The notes below the pieces were generated by a model. That model saw only the letters and a program-made list of their open reading frames with translations, ran no database searches and had not been told where the DNA came from. Position numbers and translations under genes: made by a program. From assembly GCA_000182565.2 (NCBI GenBank), contig KQ257458.1: a DNA stretch of 64,000 nucleotides; one strand, 5' to 3'. The stretch comes from Spizellomyces punctatus DAOM BR117. Its lineage: Eukaryota. Below, piece after piece: positions 28,143-35,674 of this stretch (position 1 is the first letter of the stretch; the number at the start of each line of letters is the position of its first letter).

Positions 28143-28289
28143 TTAGTCCATTTTGGACATAATGTCGCTTACGCAATTCTAAAATTTTTTTGGAGGCACG
28201 GACAGGCACAGTCATAGAATCTTTCTAAAGCTCAAAAACCAGGCAGGCTCGATTGGAATTTGCAGAGATCTCCGTTGGACTCCTTCACC

Positions 28290-30364
28290 ATGTCGGACTA
28301 TCGAAAGGTTCCCATTAAGAAATTCTCTAAGCCGGCTGGGCGGAAGACAGCAGAAGCCACTTATTGGCGAAAGTTCAAGGTAAAGTACCCTTGTGAACAG
28401 CCTGTCAAGTGTGAACATCTGCTAAAAGACTTTCGTTGGCAGTCGCCTGTGCTGTTGAAAGAATATGCCGCCGTCAGCTCCATCCACTTCTCCCCAGTTG
28501 CCCCTTACGACTTTGCTGTGACGAGTTCGACCCGCATACAAATATATAGTACTAGCACACAGTCTGTCAAGAAGACAATATCCCGTTTCCAGGACACTGC
28601 GTACAGTGGACATATAAGAGGAGATGGGAAGCTTTTGGTTGCTGGTGATGCTTCAGGGTTGGTTCAGGTTGGTTGGACCTTTTTGATATTCTTGAGCAGG
28701 AAATAGAGCTAATGGAGCCATACGCAGTTGTTTGACCTTAACAGTCGGGCCATTCTGCGGACCATGCGAGGTCATGACGGGTAAACATTTGCTTTCTTTA
28801 TGACTAATTAAGTGTGAGGATTTGAAGTTGATTTTCGTTGCCAATATATCGCAGCCCAGTGCACATGACACGGTTTTCGCCTGATCATCAACAAATCCTT
28901 TCGGGCTCGGATGATAATACTGTCCGAGTGTGGGACGTAGCAACTGAAACACCTTTGGCTGTTTTTGAAGACCACGAGGTGCGTTCGAAACATTATGATT
29001 ATCAAAGGTCCTTGTACTGACCTCTCAGCTCAGGATTACGTTAGGACCGGTCTCGTCAGTACCGAGAATCCGCACCTTGTGCTATCCGGTTCTTACGACC
29101 ACACCGTGAAATTGTGGGATTTGCGCTCGAAAGTGTGTACAATGACGATGAGACACGGATTTCCAGTAGAGTCTCTTTTATTATTCCCAGGAAGCGGCCT
29201 AGTGGCCTCGGCAGGTATGACATTTGTAGTTTGTTTGTATATGTTCCTGGCTTAACAACGTTGGGTGCAGGTGGCAATCAGATTAGGATCTGGGACATAT
29301 TAGGTGGCGGCCGGCATCTCCAGACGCTTGCAAATCATCAGAAAACGATAACATGCATGACTTTTGACGGGTCGGGGACGAGGATTCTGACAGGATCGCT
29401 GGATCACCATGTCAAAGTCTACAGCGCGAGAGATTACAAAGTCGTGCACAACATCAAATACCCAGCACCGATTCAAAGTATAGGGGTCTCGGTATGTTTA
29501 CAGTGGTGAATTATCCTACCAGGAATTGTTGTCTAACGCATCATGTTTGCAGCCGAATGATACCCACCTGGTCGTGGGAATGAATAATGGTCTACTCTCC
29601 ATACGACAACGTATGGTAAAGACTGCCGATTTAGTCAACCCGGCAAAAGATGACTTTAGGAGAGGTAGCCAGAAGTACTGGAATCGTGGTGGGGATTATG
29701 TTCCTGAAGGGGTAAGATTTAAAGATCTTGGTGACCCAGTGTTTGGTCTCGGCTGATGCTTGTATGCTGTGTGCATTTTCTCTTACTTAGCACGACATCC
29801 AAGTTGAGGCGCATAAGGGGAAGCAGCTCAAGAGCTACGACAAGCTGATGAGAAGATTTCGCTACGCTGATGCACTGGACGCGTCACTGTCTGGGGTATA
29901 TTGTCCAGTTACTTCGCAATCTCAAAATTGTTGAGCGCCTAATCTATTCCGTTTCACGTTACACAGAACCATCGATCGGTTATTGTAATAAGTGTGCTTG
30001 AGGAATTACGACACCGAGGAGGGCTTCGGGCCGCATTGGGCGGGAGAGACGATAAATCTTTGGAGCCGGTGCTACGCTTTATAATGAAGCATATCTCGAA
30101 TCCTCGATACTCAAATTTTTTGATAGATATTGCAAACATTATTTTAGGTAAGAACATGATCACGTCGATCAAAGTTCTCTCATGTTCGTGGGATAACTTT
30201 ACCCACCTTCTCTAGATATGTACGAAGGAGTATTGGGACAAGCTCCGTTGATTGATGAGCTGATCGCGCGAATCCGGAAAAAAGTCGCACAAGAGATCCA
30301 GCTACAGGAACGACTGAACGAGGTCATGGGGTTCATGATGACACTGCTCTCAGCAGCAACATAA
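28290..30364 (+). CDS. UTP15: U3 snoRNP-associated WD40 protein Utp15
   Basis: YWRKFK|SPVLLKE, TISRFQD, WD repeats (SGSDDNTVRVWD, SGSYDHTVKLWD), C-terminal EELRHRGGLRAALGGRD. Confidence 0.95.
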
Positions 30365-30889: not shown

Positions 30890-31126
30890 TGGTCAACTCC
30901 CAGGTCGCTGGAAGCGACTTCGTGTGAACTGCTAGCAGTTCAAGATGCCATGTCTAAGCCCCTTCCAAAGGCGCAGCGTCGCGTCGCGTTCAACGTCCGA
31001 AACTTGTCGTCCAAGGTGTTCCAAGTGTTTGCATCGTTCGTTTTTTGCCCACTCGCGCCACTGGAAAGAAGCTGGAAACCTTTGTTACTGCTCAACGCGG
31101 TGACAAGGTAGTGGCTTGTGTGCAGT

Positions 31127-32494
31127 ATGCTTTCTTCAACTATTCAGACATCCCCGGCTCCACCCGTTAGCGCGGAAAGAGGCAGCGTTGGTGTCCACCA
31201 GCCAGTACATCATGCGGACGTTCCGCCTAATATGAAAAGAATATTAACTCCTTCGAAGGTAGAGGCTGGTGAGTAAGCTGAAGGTCTTCTACAGTGTTTC
31301 AAGATCCACAAGTACTTAGAAGCATGTTACCCGATCGCAAGTGATTTCCAAAATCACCCCTACACGTCTCCGCCAACCTCCTGTCCGCACGCCAGTCTCT
31401 GGCAAGAGGAGCGGACCTTCGCCTGTTCTCCATAGTCCTCCTTGTAATGGTAAACCCAGCCCTCTGGAGGATCGCCCACCGTGGGATCCTGACTTCCACG
31501 TGAACCGTCCCGACCTCCGAAAACCAAAGCCAGGTCGTCCAATATCTGCCACCTCCCCAGGCATAGCCCGTCCTGTGAGTCATTCAGAAGATGGGAAGTC
31601 ACCGAGCTTTCGCGTCTCCCCGTACTCGAAGCTACCAAGAGCAACGAATGACATGTAAATGTACAGAGGCTTTCGGTGCAGTAAGAGGACAGTGCTAACA
31701 AGCGTCCACAGATCGGGGAAAGATTTCTCGGAGCAGTCGAGTCATAGCCTCCTACGCTCGAGATCAGTGGACTTTAGAACAGCCACCGGACAAGGTATAT
31801 CTAAATCTTTCATGGACTTGGGCGCCGTTCCTTGATTTATAACAAATCTTTTTCTGCAGTCAGTGTCATGGCTGAACTAGAGGAGCTGCAGAAAACGTGC
31901 GATATTCAAAAGCAGCGCATTGCGCTTCTAGAAGGGGAACTTGAAGTGAAAACTGGACAAATCAACGATCTTGGTATGGCAGTATGGAAGCATTCTATGA
32001 GATTTCGGGTGACATTCCATATAAACATTGATACGTATCTTGCTAGAGAGGAAGGTACTCTCGGAGCGCAAGAATCGGGAAAATATGGAAGCCGACTTTG
32101 CTCATCGGGAGGCGGAAATTCTTCAGGTTTGGGAAAAGGAATTCGAGCAAGGGTTAGTCCAAACTGCTGGCTACAATTATTTTACCAATCTAACTGAATT
32201 CACACCATTAGACGAAGTATGGCACGAGAACTTGCGATGTACAAGGAGTTTCACACAGAAGCGCGGGAGGAGCTTACTGGGGAGGTTGCGGGATTGAAAG
32301 GGGAGCTAGACCGATTGAAGGGCATAATGAATGAGAGGCATGACGAGACATGGGGACAGAAGCAGGGTCGTATAGGAAAGGAAAACGAGATGGAAGAGAG
32401 GACGAACTCCCTTCGCCAGCGTATCTTGGAAATTGAAAGGAAGCTTGCAACGCAGAAACTAGGCCAGTCCTCGGTCGTGGCTGAAAAGAGCTGA
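31127..32494 (+). CDS. Hypothetical protein: SP/TP-rich disordered N-terminus plus C-terminal coiled coil
   Basis: ATG at 31127 (MLSSTIQTSPAPP); canonical introns link ORFs 31341, 31832, 32028 and 32219; heptad-rich exons. Confidence 0.65.
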
Positions 32495-32707
32495 GCAGCG
32501 CAGAATACTTTAGGGTTTGATAGGTAGTATAAGGTACAGGGATATCTTGTGGAGTCTTTAACTCTCACAAGTAATAAAAGAGCGGGATGTCACCAAAATG
32601 TGAGACCACAATGCTTTGTAACGTGACCAGCGAAGATCGAACTCGGCAAAAGGTTCAAGAGAAGCATCCCATTTGCTCATGACTAGTTCAGACTACTGTC
32701 TCTGCAA

Positions 32708-33712
32708 ATGGTTGTTCCACCTGATAAAGCTTCCGCTGACTTTGACTTGCTGCACCGCAACGAATATACGTTCTGTCTTGTTTCGACCACTTACACATGT
32801 CCTTTCAGTCCTGGAGATGTTGTTTACGTGAAGCTGCGATCTCAGAAGGATACAGGTCGAGCAACAATCCTTGCCGACGCGGACCCATCTGGGAGAATTC
32901 TTGTCCAGTATCATGCCGACAAAAGCATGCTGTATCATGTCAATCCCCAGCGGCTTGTTAATGTGTATCCCACTGACACGCCCCTTATTCTCTTGTGCGA
33001 GAATACAACCGATTATCGTACACTAGCACGTTCGCAAATCGACCGAAACGACGTTGTTGCGGAGATAGGATCCTCTTACGGAGTGTGCACAAATATTTTA
33101 TCACAGCACGCCAAGCAAGTCTTTGGGATTGAAGTATCCCAGCAGCTTGTTGACGAGGCCCGAAAACGATATCCGCACTTGGTATTTCACAACATCAACA
33201 TTCTGGAGCATAAATCTAGGGCTGCAACTATTATGCAGGATGTGAACAAGGTGTTTGTGGACATTGGCGGTAACAGGGAGATTGGCGTCGTCGTTAGAGC
33301 ATTAGCCTTTCTGATCGACAGAATTAAACCTAGCCTAATTGTCGTGAAGAGCGAGGAGCTATTTGAGAGTGCCCAGCGACATCTTGACAAATCCTCGTCA
33401 AATAACGAGAGTGGGAGGATACCAGACGGTCCGTGCTGGTTTGAAACCTTGTGCAAAGATCATGCCATTTGCGATGGTCAAACAAGTTCAGCTGAGAGTT
33501 GGTTTCTCCGAGCCAGACGGGATGGGTTCACCAAGAACCCGTTGCGGTATCCGATACGAATGACTTCCGATGGCGTGGCAATCTGCAAGTTGCAAAACTA
33601 CCGAGAGGAAGGCTGCCAGAAACTCAGTCTTTGTCGATTTGATCATATTCATTGTCACCATTGTGGTCATGCAGGCCATAAAGCACTTCACTGCCCGCTT
33701 GTCAATACATGA
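32708..33712 (+). CDS. Intronless SAM-dependent methyltransferase with an N-terminal SH3/KOW-like barrel and C-terminal CCCH + CCHC zinc fingers
   Basis: Motif I VAEIGSSYG, motif II FGIE, FVDIGG, IVVKSEE; C-x9-C-x5-C-x3-H followed by C-x2-C-x4-H-x4-C. Confidence 0.85.
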   Translation: MVVPPDKASADFDLLHRNEYTFCLVSTTYTCPFSPGDVVYVKLRSQKDTGRATILADADPSGRILVQYHADKSMLYHVNPQRLVNVYPTDTPLILLCENTTDYRTLARSQIDRNDVVAEIGSSYGVCTNILSQHAKQVFGIEVSQQLVDEARKRYPHLVFHNINILEHKSRAATIMQDVNKVFVDIGGNREIGVVVRALAFLIDRIKPSLIVVKSEELFESAQRHLDKSSSNNESGRIPDGPCWFETLCKDHAICDGQTSSAESWFLRARRDGFTKNPLRYPIRMTSDGVAICKLQNYREEGCQKLSLCRFDHIHCHHCGHAGHKALHCPLVNT

Positions 33713-33879
33713 GTACCAGCGAGAGCCAACCCTTTCATGCTGATGGAATCATTGGCACCCTATGTATTTATGATCGCGCGGTATCTGAAGTCATTCACCT
33801 GTGGCCGCTACCTCCCCGGCCGAGTACCATAGAAGAGCATTGGTATCCAATGAGTATAAATTCAAGATTTCTACAATAA

Positions 33880-34559
33880 TTAAGCTGATGGTGCACCCTT
33901 TTCCTCCTCGCGCTTCTTGATTTCCGCCCATCTCTCAGCAAAAGGATCCCGCTTTGGCCATTGGAAGAAACCTTCGTCCCGTTTCTGTTGTTTTTGTTCA
34001 TAACTGAGATCTTTCGTCTCACTAGAAGTGAAGGCTGCCCACTCCGTAAAGGCAACAACGACGGGAAGGAGAGCCCCATGTGCAACCACTCTGCTCATCT
34101 TGCCCGCTGGAAGATACGAAGTCCCTAAGTGTATGGACGAAGACATATACTTAAACACTCACAAAAAACTTACATCTTAAGCCCAGCATCACACCGGCAA
34201 CCAAAGCTCCAGCGGGGGCGTTCCACATATCATCTCGGTGCCGAATCTGGGCCACCGTACACTTGGTTCCGTAAAAGGCGGCTCCTGCCGCGGCTGTTAT
34301 CGAGGGAGTAAACAAAATTTAGCCAAATATTCCACCGAAACCTCGCATGCCTTTTTAGCTTACCGAAGAACAGTGACGAACTGGCGGCTTCTTTCAGGAT
34401 TTGCTGACCGGGCATTGCTACCCACCAGCCGAACGCGCTTCCACCCAACGCTCCCGCAACAGCACCGACACCGCCGGCTTTGAAAGCCTCCGCCCCGCAT
34501 GAGGCATCCAGAATATGATTTTCAAAGACAGACTTTGAGGAAATCGGAATCCAGCTCAT
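33880..34559 (-). CDS. Tim17-family membrane protein, probably complex I subunit NDUFA11 (B14.7)
   Basis: Gly/Ala-rich TM helices; FYGTKCTVAQIRHRDDMWNAPAGALVAGVMLGLR matches the Tim17/NDUFA11 R.kdD.wN..GG signature. Confidence 0.7.
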
Positions 34560-34717
34560 TTTGATATTTAGTGGACGGCAGAATGATGGACGAATGCACT
34601 TTCCTCTCCAAATTCTGAACTTGCCCGATGTGTGGCGCAGCTGAACACGTGCCCGTGGCACAGTTGTCTGGACATTACACCCCGATCTTGCTGCCGTCTC
34701 GAGCATAGTTCTGCATC

Positions 34718-35674
34718 ATGTCTACGATTGACACAAATAACTTGCGAACAAGTCCCGATCCTTTGACGGCATCACCAAGAGAGCTGTCTGAAATGCAGAA
34801 GAGGGCTAAAAGAAGAGACAGACGCGCCTCGAACGCAGAACCTGATGAGGAGCTGCCCGTTCAGTGGACACCTGAATTGGAGATTGTGCTGTTCCATGCT
34901 TTAGCGAGATTTAGACCAGTGGGTATGCCGCTGCGGCTTTTCATTTGTCCTTGTTCAAGTGCTTAGCCAGTTATGGCTCTCCTGATTGTCGTAGGTGTCC
35001 ACAAACATTTTCGCATGTTGAGTGTTCAACGATATTTCAACAAGGAAACAGGGTTGGACCTGACGGTGAACCAACTTTGGGCGCATCTGTCAAACTACTA
35101 CGATCTTGATGCTTTGGATGCTATGGTTAGCCTATCTGTTGTATACGTTGTGAAATCAGAGAGGACAAGCATCTTACGGAGCCACTCTACCCTTTAGGCT
35201 GATGAGACAGATGACGATATAACATTTGAAGCCAGACGAAAGAGAAGCGGATATCCATTCAAGGTTGTTGCTGAGTTTAGTCTACCAACGGATGATTTTG
35301 AAAGCATCATTGCGGAACACCGGAAAGCGGTCTCCCCTGTCCCTGATCGCGGAGCATCCACGAGACGTGGAGGTCGAGCCTCATCGCCAGCAACTGAATC
35401 GACTAGATCAACACCAGAACCACAAGCGGAACCGGAGAGTAAGTACCTTTTTTCATATCTGGCAGCGTCACATGCACTCCTTACGCCAATATTCATTCCA
35501 GCACCTGCAACAGCGCCAGGAAAGAGAGGTGTAGGTCGACCGCGAAAATCAGCAAAGAAAGATATCGTACAGCCAATTTCAGAGCCTTCACTGCGGCGAA
35601 CACGCGCAGCGTCCGCGTCAAGTGCTGCAGCAACCCCTACCCCGACTACCAAGAGGCCAAGAAGAAATGTGTAG
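34718..35674 (+). CDS. EAF7: NuA4 histone acetyltransferase subunit Eaf7/MRGBP
   Basis: WTPELEIVLFHALARFRPVG|VHKHFRM...LWAHLSNYYDLDALD...EFSLP; AT-hook-like GRPRK in the tail. Confidence 0.9.

What the first reader, a model, noticed from the sequence alone, without database searches (positions are those of the whole stretch)
32708..33712. Intronless SH3/KOW-SAM methyltransferase-CCCH-zinc knuckle fusion: candidate uncharacterised RNA 2'-O-methyltransferase
Seen in the sequence: a 334-aa gene without introns in an intron-rich neighbourhood. It has a small beta-barrel-like N-terminus (FSPGDVVYVK...GRATIL...RILVQY...HVNPQRL), SAM motifs (EIGSSYG, FGIE), FVDIGG and IVVKSEE, then an adjacent CCCH finger and CCHC knuckle. 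Established: RrmJ/FtsJ and flavivirus NS5 ribose methyltransferases use a K-D-K-E tetrad, with D after strand 4 (NS5 CDIGE) and K on strand 5, and CCCH and CCHC fingers bind ssRNA. Inference: FVDIGG and IVVK supply the D and K, so this may be an RNA-targeted 2'-O-methyltransferase. I do not recognise this architecture from model fungi or animals, and the lack of introns would fit horizontal acquisition or retroposition.
Basis: partly seen in the sequence, partly recalled or inferred. Interest (0 to 1): 0.75.

Follow-up and report, generated by a model that had tools for sequence, protein, structure and literature searches.

The report
Orphan eukaryotic zinc-finger methyltransferase gene
This is a real, expressed chytrid gene from an old, widespread and unstudied eukaryotic family of methyl-transferring enzymes that probably act on RNA, but it is not a standard ribose methylase and was not acquired recently by gene transfer.

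Summary
Sense-strand RNA-seq reads cover it and show no splice junction inside it. AlphaFold2 (pLDDT 90.2) gives a Tudor/KOW-like SH3 barrel, a class I SAM-methyltransferase Rossmann core that ends after strand 5, a helical linker, and adjacent canonical CCCH and CCHC zinc fingers.

The family is large: 939 cluster representatives at E<=1e-3. It spans chytrids, Basidiobolus, Bifiguratus, Amoebozoa, an ichthyosporean, a choanoflagellate, green algae, stramenopiles and a diplonemid. Ten of 11 fungal sequences form one clade (SH-aLRT 98). Descent is therefore old and vertical with patchy loss, not transfer or retroposition.

T100, R104, D185, G188 and K214 are invariant. D185 and K214 occupy the motif IV and motif VI positions of RrmJ's D124 and K164. 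The first Lys and the Glu/His of the K-D-K-E/H tetrad are absent. Profile and fold comparisons match FtsJ no better than KsgA, PCMT or PrmA controls.

Best reading: an uncharacterised SAM-dependent RNA methyltransferase. Ribose 2'-O chemistry is possible but unproven. Interest is moderate.

The parts
32708..33712 (+). Whole intronless coding sequence, 334 aa plus stop
   Evidence: Sense-strand RNA-seq reads with no joint inside.
32765..32788 (+). N-terminal conserved strand and motif (res 20-27). Family consensus is aromatic-x-L-aromatic-P-P.
   Evidence: Predicted strand 21-24. Position 22 is aromatic in 81% and position 25 in 91% of members; P26 is 65/90.
32804..32968 (+). Five-stranded SH3-like (Tudor/PWWP/KOW-like) barrel, res 33-87. 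It is basic and has no aromatic cage.
   Evidence: AF2. VIA Z 8.5-6.8. Foldseek top rows are nearly all Tudor or PWWP. Conservation.
32984..33391 (+). Class I SAM-methyltransferase Rossmann core, res 93-228: strand 0, helix Z, strands 1-5 and helix E
   Evidence: AF2. VIA Z up to 11.1 over res 98-252. Pfam and PDB profile hits.
33005..33037 (+). Motif X helix (T100-Q110) with invariant T100 and R104. Q110 sits where RrmJ has K38 in the ungapped register.
33062..33082 (+). Motif I, the SAM-binding Gly-rich loop E119-G125 (EIGSSYG)
   Evidence: G121 173/174, G125 175/175
33125..33139 (+). Motif II (G140-S144). The acidic residue 142 should bind the SAM ribose.
   Evidence: D/E142 175/175
33260..33277 (+). 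Motif IV D185-I-G-G-N-R190 at the end of strand 4. It holds the invariant Asp.
   Evidence: D185 180/180, G188 180/180, R190 177/180. Aligned to RlmE D124..N128.
33335..33352 (+). Strand 5 / motif VI (L210-S215) ending in the invariant K214
   Evidence: K214 178/178. Placed on RlmE K164 only in the low-confidence extension.
33392..33571 (+). Helical linker (res 229-288) that replaces the canonical strand 6-7 hairpin. It ends in the conserved P-L-x-Y-P-x-R motif.
   Evidence: AF2 helices 241-253 and 264-271. P278 137/149.
33584..33646 (+). CCCH zinc finger C293-x9-C303-x5-C309-x3-H313
   Evidence: C293 146/146, C309 143/143, H313 142/142. R294, N297, Y298 and D312 are nearly invariant.
33653..33694 (+). 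CCHC zinc knuckle C316-x2-C319-x4-H324-x4-C329
   Evidence: Ligands 141-142 of 142. Pfam zf-CCHC in 15 of 51 members. HIV-1 nucleocapsid hits at E 2.4e-4.
33713..33947 (+). Probable 3' UTR, overlapping the 3' end of the convergent minus-strand gene
   Evidence: Plus-strand depth 12.1 and 8.42, falling to 0.71 after 33947. The end point is approximate because bins are 134 nt.

Best explanation
The gene encodes a SAM-dependent methyltransferase from an old, uncharacterised eukaryotic family, and it most probably methylates RNA.

Inferred mechanism:
- The reduced Rossmann core binds SAM through motifs I-III.
- The invariant Asp185 (end of strand 4) and Lys214 (end of strand 5), together with Thr100/Arg104 on the motif X helix and Arg190, form the active site next to the SAM methyl group.
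- The tightly conserved CCCH finger and CCHC knuckle, and probably the basic Tudor-like barrel, hold a single-stranded RNA segment.

Shown here:
- The fold, the SAM-binding motifs, the invariant residues and the zinc-ligand patterns.
- Expression of the gene, the wide eukaryotic distribution of the family, and a fungal clade.

Inferred:
- RNA as the substrate.
- The chemistry. My estimates are ribose 2'-O about 0.3, base methylation about 0.15, and protein or another substrate about 0.2.
- The gene descended vertically within fungi and was lost in Dikarya.
For: Fold and SAM binding:
- AF2 gives pLDDT 90.2 and pTM 0.81.
- Class I methyltransferase folds score Z 9.7-11.1 over res 98-252.
- SAM-binding residues are kept: G121 173/174, G125 175/175, D/E142 175/175, D/N164 169/169.
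- 47 of 51 members hit Pfam Methyltransf_25.

Active site:
- T100 166/166, R104 167/167, D185 180/180, R190 177/180, K214 178/178.
- D185 aligns to RlmE D124 (hhalign Prob 93.1).

RNA binding:
- The CCCH and CCHC ligand patterns are canonical and invariant.
- zf-CCHC is found in 15 of 51 members, and HIV-1 nucleocapsid matches at E 2.4e-4.
- The barrel is basic: K/R in 73-87% of members at positions 44, 47, 63 and 82.
- Compact Foldseek matches are mainly RNA methyltransferases (KsgA, ErmE, MnmM), alongside CbiT.

Expression:
- Sense-strand reads rise toward the 3' end.

Descent:
- 939, 452 and 43 representatives at E<=1e-3, 1e-10 and 1e-30.
- Named members come from Opisthokonta, Amoebozoa, Archaeplastida, Stramenopiles and Discoba.
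- 10 of 11 fungal rows fall in one SH-aLRT 98 clade.
Against: - There is no biochemical or genetic data for any member. Three literature searches found nothing on this architecture.
- No specific methyltransferase family is matched. All Pfam and NCBIfam hits of the window protein are below their curated cut-offs.
- The core lacks the canonical strand 6-7 hairpin. NAD-binding Rossmann domains (TrkA, KtrA) score as well as methyltransferases.
- I had no model coordinates, so the position of D185 and K214 relative to SAM rests on topology and was not measured.
- Several members add protein-interaction domains. Kelch occurs in 5 of the 10 long members scanned, which would also fit a protein substrate.
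- PrmA (a protein methyltransferase) tops the fold list and PCMT gives the best hhalign E-value.
- The conservation counts include near-duplicate cluster members, so they are not 180 independent observations.
Confidence: 0.55

Rival explanations
1. One reading: it is an RrmJ/FtsJ- or NS5-like ribose 2'-O-methyltransferase that uses a K-D-K-E tetrad, with D185 and K214 as the Asp and second Lys.
For: - D185 aligns to RlmE D124 and N189 to N128.
- The motifs resemble each other: D-I-G-G-N here and D-M-A-P-N in RlmE, V-V-K in both at strand 5, and Y-R-x-x-A in motif X.
- K214 is invariant at the end of strand 5. In 2'-O-methyltransferases the second Lys there is thought to act as the general base (PMC3488215, passages read).
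- 21 of 51 members hit Pfam FtsJ at E<0.01, best 4.4e-7.
Against: - K38 (31/31 in RlmE) has no lysine counterpart. The equivalent is Gln110 (117/165) in the ungapped register, or a 10-residue deletion in hhalign.
- No Glu or His is conserved in res 215-277 (E216 82/178, E217 87/178, H277 82/149), and no strand 6-7 is predicted.
- FtsJ is not preferred over the KsgA, PCMT and PrmA controls.
- FtsJ2 scores Z 9.7 and fibrillarin Z 10.1, tied with many other families.
- The window protein's FtsJ score of 20.4 bits is below the 24.1 cut-off.
Confidence: 0.25
2. It is an RNA base methyltransferase, for example N6-adenine like KsgA/Dim1/Erm, and not a ribose methyltransferase.
For: - Archaeal Dim1 is the best single-sequence PDB hit (8x4o, E 2.2e-5).
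- hhalign to a KsgA profile covers the whole core (150 columns, res 95-252, Prob 95.5).
- Compact Foldseek hits include KsgA and ErmE (rmsd 3.9-5.1 over about 145-152 columns).
Against: - Motif IV lacks the N-L/I-P-Y signature. hhalign has to delete D185-G187 to match 'GN', and no Pro-Tyr follows.
- K214 aligns to a Leu in KsgA.
- RrnaAD scores 20 bits against a cut-off of 24.
Confidence: 0.15
3. It is a protein or small-molecule methyltransferase, and the zinc fingers, barrel and (in some lineages) Kelch propellers are structural or protein-binding adaptors.
For: - Kelch repeats occur in 5 of the 10 long members scanned, plus SRR1, GDSL-lipase and LRR fusions.
- The Kelch forms recur in clusters of 77 and 71 members, one of which includes Micromonas pusilla.
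- PrmA chains top the VIA list (Z 11.1 and 11.0).
- PCMT gives the best hhalign E-value (1.9e-9).
Against: - Of the five Kelch-fused members, the three whose match runs to query residue 329-330 (P0096, P0111, P0144) keep the zinc-finger module. The best matched stretches of P0077 and P0093 end at residues 221 and 233.
- Both fingers have canonical ssRNA-binding patterns, with R-aromatic after the first Cys and G-H-x-A in the knuckle.
- The PrmA and PCMT matches cover only the generic SAM-binding region (41 and 56 columns) and are tied with RNA enzymes.
Confidence: 0.2
4. The gene reached this chytrid recently, by horizontal transfer or retroposition, which would explain why it has no introns.
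For: - The ORF has no intron while at least one neighbour does.
- The family is patchy among fungi.
Against: - The window protein groups with Gaertneriomyces, Powellomyces and Geranomyces in taxonomic order. These sit inside a fungal clade with Basidiobolus and Bifiguratus (SH-aLRT 98).
- GC content around the gene (0.472) matches the rest of the window (0.44-0.52).
- The family occurs in five supergroups.
Confidence: 0.05

Closest known systems
RrmJ/RlmE (FtsJ family) and other K-D-K-E/H ribose 2'-O-methyltransferases
   Same: - Class I fold.
- Invariant Asp at the end of strand 4 in a D-h-x-x-N context.
- Invariant Lys at the end of strand 5 in an h-V-V-K context.
- A Y-R-x-x-A motif X helix.
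   Different: - No motif X Lys and no motif VIII Glu/His.
- No strand 6-7 hairpin.
- No preferential profile or fold similarity.
- Extra Tudor-like barrel and CCCH/CCHC module.
KsgA/Dim1/Erm rRNA adenine dimethylases
   Same: The longest and best sequence and profile alignment of the Rossmann core, and compact Foldseek matches.
   Different: The motif IV N-L-P-Y is replaced by D-I-G-G-N-R. The C-terminal domain differs.
Minimal prokaryotic class I methyltransferases (150-180 aa), such as CbiT/MT0146, MnmM and archaeal 171-179 aa clusters in the ESM Atlas
   Same: - A small core of similar size.
- Atlas TM 0.71-0.86, normalised by the small protein.
- CbiT profile and PDB hits extend through the I-G-G segment.
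   Different: These are stand-alone proteins with no barrel and no zinc fingers. Most have unknown function. The relationship is a structural lead only.
Methyltransferases joined to RNA-binding zinc fingers or barrels: METTL3 (CCCH), ZCCHC4 (CCHC), Trm13 (CCCH), RumA/TrmA (TRAM barrel). These architectures are recalled from memory and were not tested here, except that RumA appeared as a Foldseek hit.
   Same: The same design logic: a class I catalytic core aimed at RNA by small zinc fingers or a beta-barrel.
   Different: Different catalytic families and motif IV signatures, and a different domain order. None matched specifically.
Tudor/PWWP/chromo-barrel/KOW small beta-barrels
   Same: Five-stranded SH3-like barrel. 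VIA Z 8.5-6.8, and Foldseek top rows nearly all Tudor or PWWP.
   Different: No aromatic cage: only positions 40, 68 and 87 are mostly aromatic. The surface is strongly basic. The Foldseek E-values are weak (3e-3 and above).

Membership tests
RrmJ/FtsJ-fibrillarin type ribose 2'-O-methyltransferases (K-D-K-E/H) | Class I Rossmann fold with SAM-binding motifs I-III | tested here: met
   AF2, VIA. G121, G125, D/E142 and D/N164 are conserved.
RrmJ/FtsJ-fibrillarin type ribose 2'-O-methyltransferases (K-D-K-E/H) | Motif X catalytic Lys (RlmE K38). The tetrad is defined in PMC3488215 (passages read). | tested here: not met
   K38 is 31/31 in RlmE. Here the ungapped motif X register gives Gln110 (117/165, with no Lys among the six commonest residues). 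hhalign puts K38 in a segment this family lacks. T100 and R104 are invariant instead.
RrmJ/FtsJ-fibrillarin type ribose 2'-O-methyltransferases (K-D-K-E/H) | Motif IV catalytic Asp at the end of strand 4 | tested here: met
   D185 is 180/180, lies at the end of predicted strand 181-185, and aligns to D124.
RrmJ/FtsJ-fibrillarin type ribose 2'-O-methyltransferases (K-D-K-E/H) | Motif VI catalytic Lys on strand 5 | tested here: inconclusive
   K214 is 178/178 at the end of predicted strand 210-214. It aligns to K164 only in the low-confidence extension. No coordinates were available to measure the geometry.
RrmJ/FtsJ-fibrillarin type ribose 2'-O-methyltransferases (K-D-K-E/H) | Motif VIII Glu or His | tested here: not met
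   No conserved Glu or His in res 215-277 (E216 82/178, E217 87/178, E263 23/86, H277 82/149). No strand 6-7 hairpin is predicted.
RrmJ/FtsJ-fibrillarin type ribose 2'-O-methyltransferases (K-D-K-E/H) | Closer to FtsJ than to other class I families by profile or fold | tested here: not met
   hhalign: FtsJ 93.1% over 77 columns, KsgA 95.5% over 150, PCMT 96.3% over 56, PrmA 91.5% over 41. VIA scores are tied at Z 9.7-11.1. Pfam FtsJ scores 20.4 bits, below 24.1.
KsgA/Dim1/Erm rRNA adenine dimethylases | Motif IV N-(L/I)-P-Y after strand 4. The signature is visible as GNLPYN in the KsgA profile. | tested here: not met
   The family has D-I-G-G-N-R with no Pro-Tyr.
KsgA/Dim1/Erm rRNA adenine dimethylases | Pfam RrnaAD score above the gathering threshold | tested here: not met
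   20 bits against 24. 12 of 51 members hit at E<0.01.
Tudor-type methyl-lysine/arginine readers | SH3-like five-stranded barrel | tested here: met
Tudor-type methyl-lysine/arginine readers | Aromatic cage of 3-5 residues. The feature is recalled from memory. | tested here: not met
   Only positions 40, 68 and 87 are mostly aromatic. The strand 1-2 loop is basic and not aromatic.
CCCH (C-x7-10-C-x5-C-x3-H) zinc finger | Four ligands at canonical spacing with an aromatic residue between the third Cys and His | tested here: met
   C293 146/146, C303 91/105, C309 143/143, H313 142/142, F/Y311 104/142. The Pfam zf-CCCH HMM hits only 1 of 51 members, so this rests on the pattern.
CCHC zinc knuckle (C-x2-C-x4-H-x4-C) | Ligand spacing and the G-H core | tested here: met
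   C316, C319 and C329 are 142/142, H324 141/142, G323 138/142. PF00098 hits 15 of 51 members. Retroviral nucleocapsid hits at E 2.4e-4.

The most novel reading that the evidence does not exclude
This is the first examined member of an orphan RNA-methyltransferase family that probably dates to the last eukaryotic common ancestor. It would combine a minimal Rossmann core without strands 6-7, a reduced Thr/Arg-Asp-Lys active site that arose independently of the RrmJ tetrad, and a rigidly integrated CCCH-CCHC module. It would write a specific RNA mark that animals, Dikarya and land plants have lost. In Mamiellophyceae the enzyme is further coupled to a Kelch propeller.
Probability: 0.3. Interest if true: 0.65.

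Novelty: new variant of a known kind. Interest (0 to 1): 0.42.

Why it matters
If the family really methylates RNA, it adds an unassigned writer enzyme to the eukaryotic RNA-modification repertoire. The family is abundant in ecologically important protists such as diatoms and prasinophytes like Micromonas, and in early-diverging fungi. No named animal, Dikarya or land-plant homologue turned up, which could explain why nobody has studied it. The invariant T100/R104/D185/R190/K214 set gives clear mutagenesis targets. The reduced core is also a natural test of how much of the class I methyltransferase fold and of the K-D-K-E tetrad catalysis actually needs. For genome annotation, the practical result is that 'FtsJ-like 2'-O-methyltransferase' would be an over-annotation.

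Tried and rejected
- Own-genome searches for FtsJ genes and for paralogues failed because no genome is held for this window. Whether the genome has paralogues is unknown.
- hhalign against a single RlmE sequence was too weak to use (Prob 4%).
- The search for related loci returned only RlmE sequences at least 87% identical, useless for a profile. I replaced it with phylum-wide sampling.
- NCBIfam gave only sub-threshold generic hits.
- The profile search of the word-indexed database gave just 34 hits, and the 'longer' search just 3. Both were limited by the word index.
- Neighbouring ORFs had no Pfam hits apart from a WD40 fragment, so gene context says nothing about function.
- No listed RNA holder was indexed for the stretch. 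Expression evidence comes only from laying run X9.
- Earlier notes of this scan held nothing by place, sequence or words.
- Literature searches found nothing on this architecture.
- I looked by eye for an in-frame intron behind the N-terminal 'insertion' and rejected it. The only good acceptor (ending at 32808) would break the frame or need a 39-nt intron.
- I did not run complex prediction, because the report makes no binding claim.
- Supplementary files were not consulted.
Full report
**Observation**

The window holds an ATG-to-stop ORF at 32708..33712 on the + strand that encodes 334 aa. GC content around it (0.472) is typical of the window (0.44-0.52).

There is an N-terminal beta-rich segment. 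The motifs are EIGSSYG (res 119-125), FGIE (139-142), FVDIGG (183-188) and IVVKSEE (211-217). There is a CCCH finger (C293-x9-C303-x5-C309-x3-H313), followed two residues later by a CCHC knuckle (C316-x2-C319-x4-H324-x4-C329).

The apparent N-terminal insertion in alignment A1 is a MAFFT artefact. I found no usable in-frame intron by eye in the DNA.

**Expression and gene structure**

One RNA-seq run with the same species label (X9) was laid on 31000-35000. About 6% of the run was read and 1943 reads were laid.

In this library the first mate has the sense of the RNA, for three reasons:
- A T-run loose end before 33840 (29 reads) marks the poly(A) site of the minus-strand neighbour, whose reads lie on the minus strand.
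- That neighbour's intron joint (34106 to 34174, CT..AC on +) is carried by 9 minus-strand reads.
- The upstream plus-strand gene is covered by plus-strand reads.

Over the ORF, plus-strand depth rises from 0.44 (32742-32875) to 14.7 (33546-33679). It continues to about 33947, as expected for a 3'-biased library. No joint lies inside the ORF. Coverage of the 5' half is thin, so a rare intron cannot be excluded.

The downstream gene has a confirmed 67-nt intron. The upstream gene and a WD40 gene at 28.2-29.5 kb are split across reading frames. The statement 'intronless among intron-bearing genes' therefore holds as far as I tested it.

**Family and distribution**

The window protein matches only generic class I methyltransferase models, all below their curated cut-offs: Methyltransf_4 22.3 bits against 24, RrnaAD 20 against 24, FtsJ 20.4 against 24.1. 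NCBIfam gives the same picture.

The protein is not an orphan. The word-indexed search found 32 proteins at E<=1e-3. The exhaustive search of 1.84 billion cluster representatives found 939 at E<=1e-3, 452 at E<=1e-10 and 43 at E<=1e-30.

Named members:
- Spizellomycetales chytrids: Powellomyces, Geranomyces, Gaertneriomyces, Phlyctochytrium.
- Other early-diverging fungi: Olpidium, Basidiobolus, Bifiguratus.
- Amoebozoa: Planoprotostelium, Phalansterium.
- Holozoa: the ichthyosporean Sphaerothecum and the choanoflagellate Salpingoeca.
- Green algae: Pyramimonas, Micromonas, Monoraphidium, Tetradesmus, Mesostigma.
- The stramenopile Chrysoparadoxa and the diplonemid Lacrimia.

The ESM Atlas lists Bacillariophyta as the commonest phylum of the nearest clusters. 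No named hit came from animals, Dikarya or land plants.

**Phylogeny**

I built a quick IQ-TREE tree (LG+C20, SH-aLRT) from 47 rows chosen from the 185 proteins fetched: 20 named rows plus 27 unnamed near-full-length rows. The partial Tetradesmus sequence and the remaining unnamed representatives were left out.

Ten of the 11 fungal rows fall in one clade with SH-aLRT 98, together with Planoprotostelium and two unnamed sequences. Inside that clade the window protein groups with Gaertneriomyces, Powellomyces and Geranomyces. Olpidium, which has a long and poorly modelled sequence, falls outside.

This pattern is what vertical descent with loss predicts. It gives no support to recent horizontal transfer or retroposition.

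**Structure**

AlphaFold2 on a 51-row alignment gave mean pLDDT 90.2 and pTM 0.81. The 51 rows were the near-full-length matches picked from the roughly 165 proteins then in hand (A2).

Predicted elements, in order:
- A strand at 21-24.
- A five-stranded barrel (38-41, 51-58, 64-68, 75-78, 83-85).
- A strand at 93-97 and helix Z (100-109).
- The alternating strands 1-5 and helices of a Rossmann fold (116-228).
- Helices at 241-253 and 264-271, and then the zinc fingers.

After strand 5 no strand 6-7 hairpin is predicted. The core is therefore a reduced version of the seven-stranded class I fold.

**Fold comparison**

Foldseek against the PDB gave 44 matches at E<=1e-3. The compact ones (rmsd 3.6-5.3 Å over about 120-150 columns) are KsgA, ErmE, CbiT, MnmM and Abd1.

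The Foldseek-independent VIA search gave 229 chains at Z>=8. The top 50 are tied at Z 9.7-11.1 over res 98-252. They include PrmA, DIMT1, ErmE, RlmI, TrmN, HemK, METTL5, fibrillarin (10.1), FtsJ2 (9.7) and the NAD-binding TrkA/KtrA. The fold is generic class I and no family stands out.

The barrel was folded alone (res 28-92, pLDDT 83.2). It matches PWWP, Tudor, KOW, chromo-barrel and SH3 domains at Z 8.5-6.8. Foldseek's top rows are nearly all Tudor or PWWP domains, at weak E-values of 3e-3 and above.

The barrel has no aromatic cage and is strongly basic, with K/R in 73-87% of members at positions 44, 47, 63 and 82. It is a Tudor/KOW-like barrel, but it is unlikely to read methyl-lysine or methyl-arginine.

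**Conservation**

All 185 fetched family proteins were aligned to a profile in P0001 numbering. This gave 266 domain hits at E<=1e-5, and counts are per column. The set includes near-duplicate cluster members, so the counts overstate independence.

- Invariant or nearly so: T100 166/166, R104 167/167, G121 173/174, G125 175/175, D185 180/180, G188 180/180, R190 177/180, K214 178/178.
- SAM-binding positions: D/E142 175/175 and D/N164 169/169.
- Zinc ligands: C293 146/146, C309 143/143, H313 142/142, C316, C319 and C329 142/142, H324 141/142.
- Non-ligand finger residues are also almost fixed: R294 140/146, N297 143/146, Y298 135/145, D312 128/142, G323 138/142, A326 136/142.

The fixed non-ligand residues, together with the high pTM, suggest the finger module is a fixed part of the enzyme and not a flexible tail.

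**Testing the K-D-K-E claim**

The tetrad is defined by motifs X, IV, VI and VIII, with the second Lys thought to act as the general base on the 2'-OH (PMC3488215, passages read).

I took E. coli RlmE from NC_000913.3 and 30 diverse proteobacterial RlmE sequences. In that alignment K38, D124, K164 and E199 are each 31/31.

hhalign of the family profile against this RlmE profile gives Prob 93.1 and E 3.1e-7 over res 110-192. It places D185 on D124 and N189 on N128.

A greedy extension (mact 0.01), which is low confidence, gives three further placements:
- K214 falls on K164.
- R104 falls on the conserved R32 of the Y-R-S-R-A motif.
- K38 falls in a 10-residue segment that this family lacks.

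In the ungapped motif X register K38 would correspond to Gln110 (117/165). No Glu or His is conserved between residues 215 and 277.

So two of the four tetrad positions are present: the Asp, and a Lys that is topologically equivalent to the second Lys.

**Controls**

Profiles of KsgA, PCMT and PrmA, built the same way from the same genomes, match the family as well as FtsJ does or better:
- KsgA: Prob 95.5, E 1.5e-8, 150 columns covering res 95-252.
- PCMT: Prob 96.3, E 1.9e-9, 56 columns.
- PrmA: Prob 91.5, E 8.4e-7, 41 columns.

The FtsJ match therefore reflects the shared SAM-binding half and not a specific relationship.

The KsgA alignment does not transfer KsgA's active site either. D185-G187 are deleted to match 'GN' of GNLPY, no Pro-Tyr follows, and K214 falls on a Leu. 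The D185/K214 signature belongs to this family.

**Fusions**

Of the 10 longer members scanned, 5 carry C-terminal Kelch repeats, one an N-terminal SRR1 domain and one a GDSL lipase. One member has LRRs and one has a HAD phosphatase domain.

The Kelch forms are real. Their clusters have 77 and 71 members on contigs up to 303 kb, and one cluster includes Micromonas pusilla. Three of the five (P0096, P0111, P0144) match through query residue 329-330, so they keep the zinc fingers.

**Interpretation**

Most likely (0.55) this is an active SAM-dependent methyltransferase that acts on RNA. The canonical CCCH and CCHC fingers, and perhaps the basic barrel, would hold single-stranded RNA. D185 and K214, with T100, R104 and R190, would form the catalytic and substrate-binding site.

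In every class I methyltransferase strands 4 and 5 are neighbours in the sheet and their C-terminal ends face the SAM methyl group. That is established knowledge applied to this model, not something I measured.

Ribose 2'-O-methylation is the single most likely chemistry (about 0.3), because an invariant strand 5 Lys paired with a motif IV Asp is what 2'-O-methyltransferases use. RrmJ mutagenesis, as I recall it and did not check here, found K38 essential. This family has no such lysine.

The alternatives remain open: base methylation (about 0.15), a protein or other substrate (about 0.2), and recent horizontal origin (about 0.05).

**Novelty**

The family has no dedicated Pfam or NCBIfam model. 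Three full-text searches found no paper on the architecture. Supplementary files were not consulted.

It is a new variant of a known kind: a class I methyltransferase with its own active-site signature, a reduced core and an unusual Tudor-like/CCCH/CCHC architecture. It is moderately interesting as an unassigned and probably ancient RNA-modification enzyme. It is not the horizontally acquired K-D-K-E ribose methylase that was proposed.

Noticed in passing
window 33700-33950: The 3' ends of two convergent transcripts overlap. Plus-strand reads of this gene run to about 33947. The minus-strand neighbour has a poly(A) site at 33840 (29 reads with a T-run), and some of its reads reach down to about 33550, which is inside this ORF's 3' end.
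   Followed up: partly
window 34107-34173 (minus strand): A 67-nt GT..AG intron in the downstream gene, confirmed by 9 RNA-seq reads and one older contig (X1). That gene's ORF pieces (33795-34715) have no Pfam match.
   Followed up: partly
P0011 (Planoprotostelium fungivorum homologue): This amoebozoan homologue sits inside the fungal clade in the tree. Its gene model is fused to an RNA polymerase M/15 kDa subunit domain (PF02150). Possible causes are transfer from fungal prey, contamination, or a merged gene model.
   Followed up: no
P0077, P0093, P0096, P0111, P0144 (relatives): Recurrent methyltransferase-Kelch fusions. Three (P0096, P0111, P0144) also match through the zinc fingers. Two clusters have 77 and 71 members, and one includes Micromonas pusilla. 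The Kelch propeller hints at a protein partner or substrate in Mamiellophyceae.
   Followed up: partly
P0003 (Powellomyces hirtus homologue): Its C-terminus diverges after the CCCH region and lacks the CCHC knuckle, although its neighbours on the tree keep it. This is probably a gene-model or frameshift error in that record.
   Followed up: no
window 28218-29509 (+): A WD40-repeat gene split over at least three reading frames, consistent with several short introns. Only the 29045-29506 piece hits the WD40 models.
   Followed up: no
window 32481-32482: Minor-allele or error signal in the upstream gene's 3' region: C>G in 5 of 29 and T>G in 4 of 29 plus-strand RNA reads.
   Followed up: no
ESM Atlas structural neighbours of P0001 res 93-265: Archaeal (Methanobacteriota) stand-alone methyltransferases of 171-179 aa align over the whole reduced core including the post-strand-5 helices (TM 0.71-0.72 by the small protein). 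They are a possible prokaryotic ancestor of the catalytic module.
   Followed up: no
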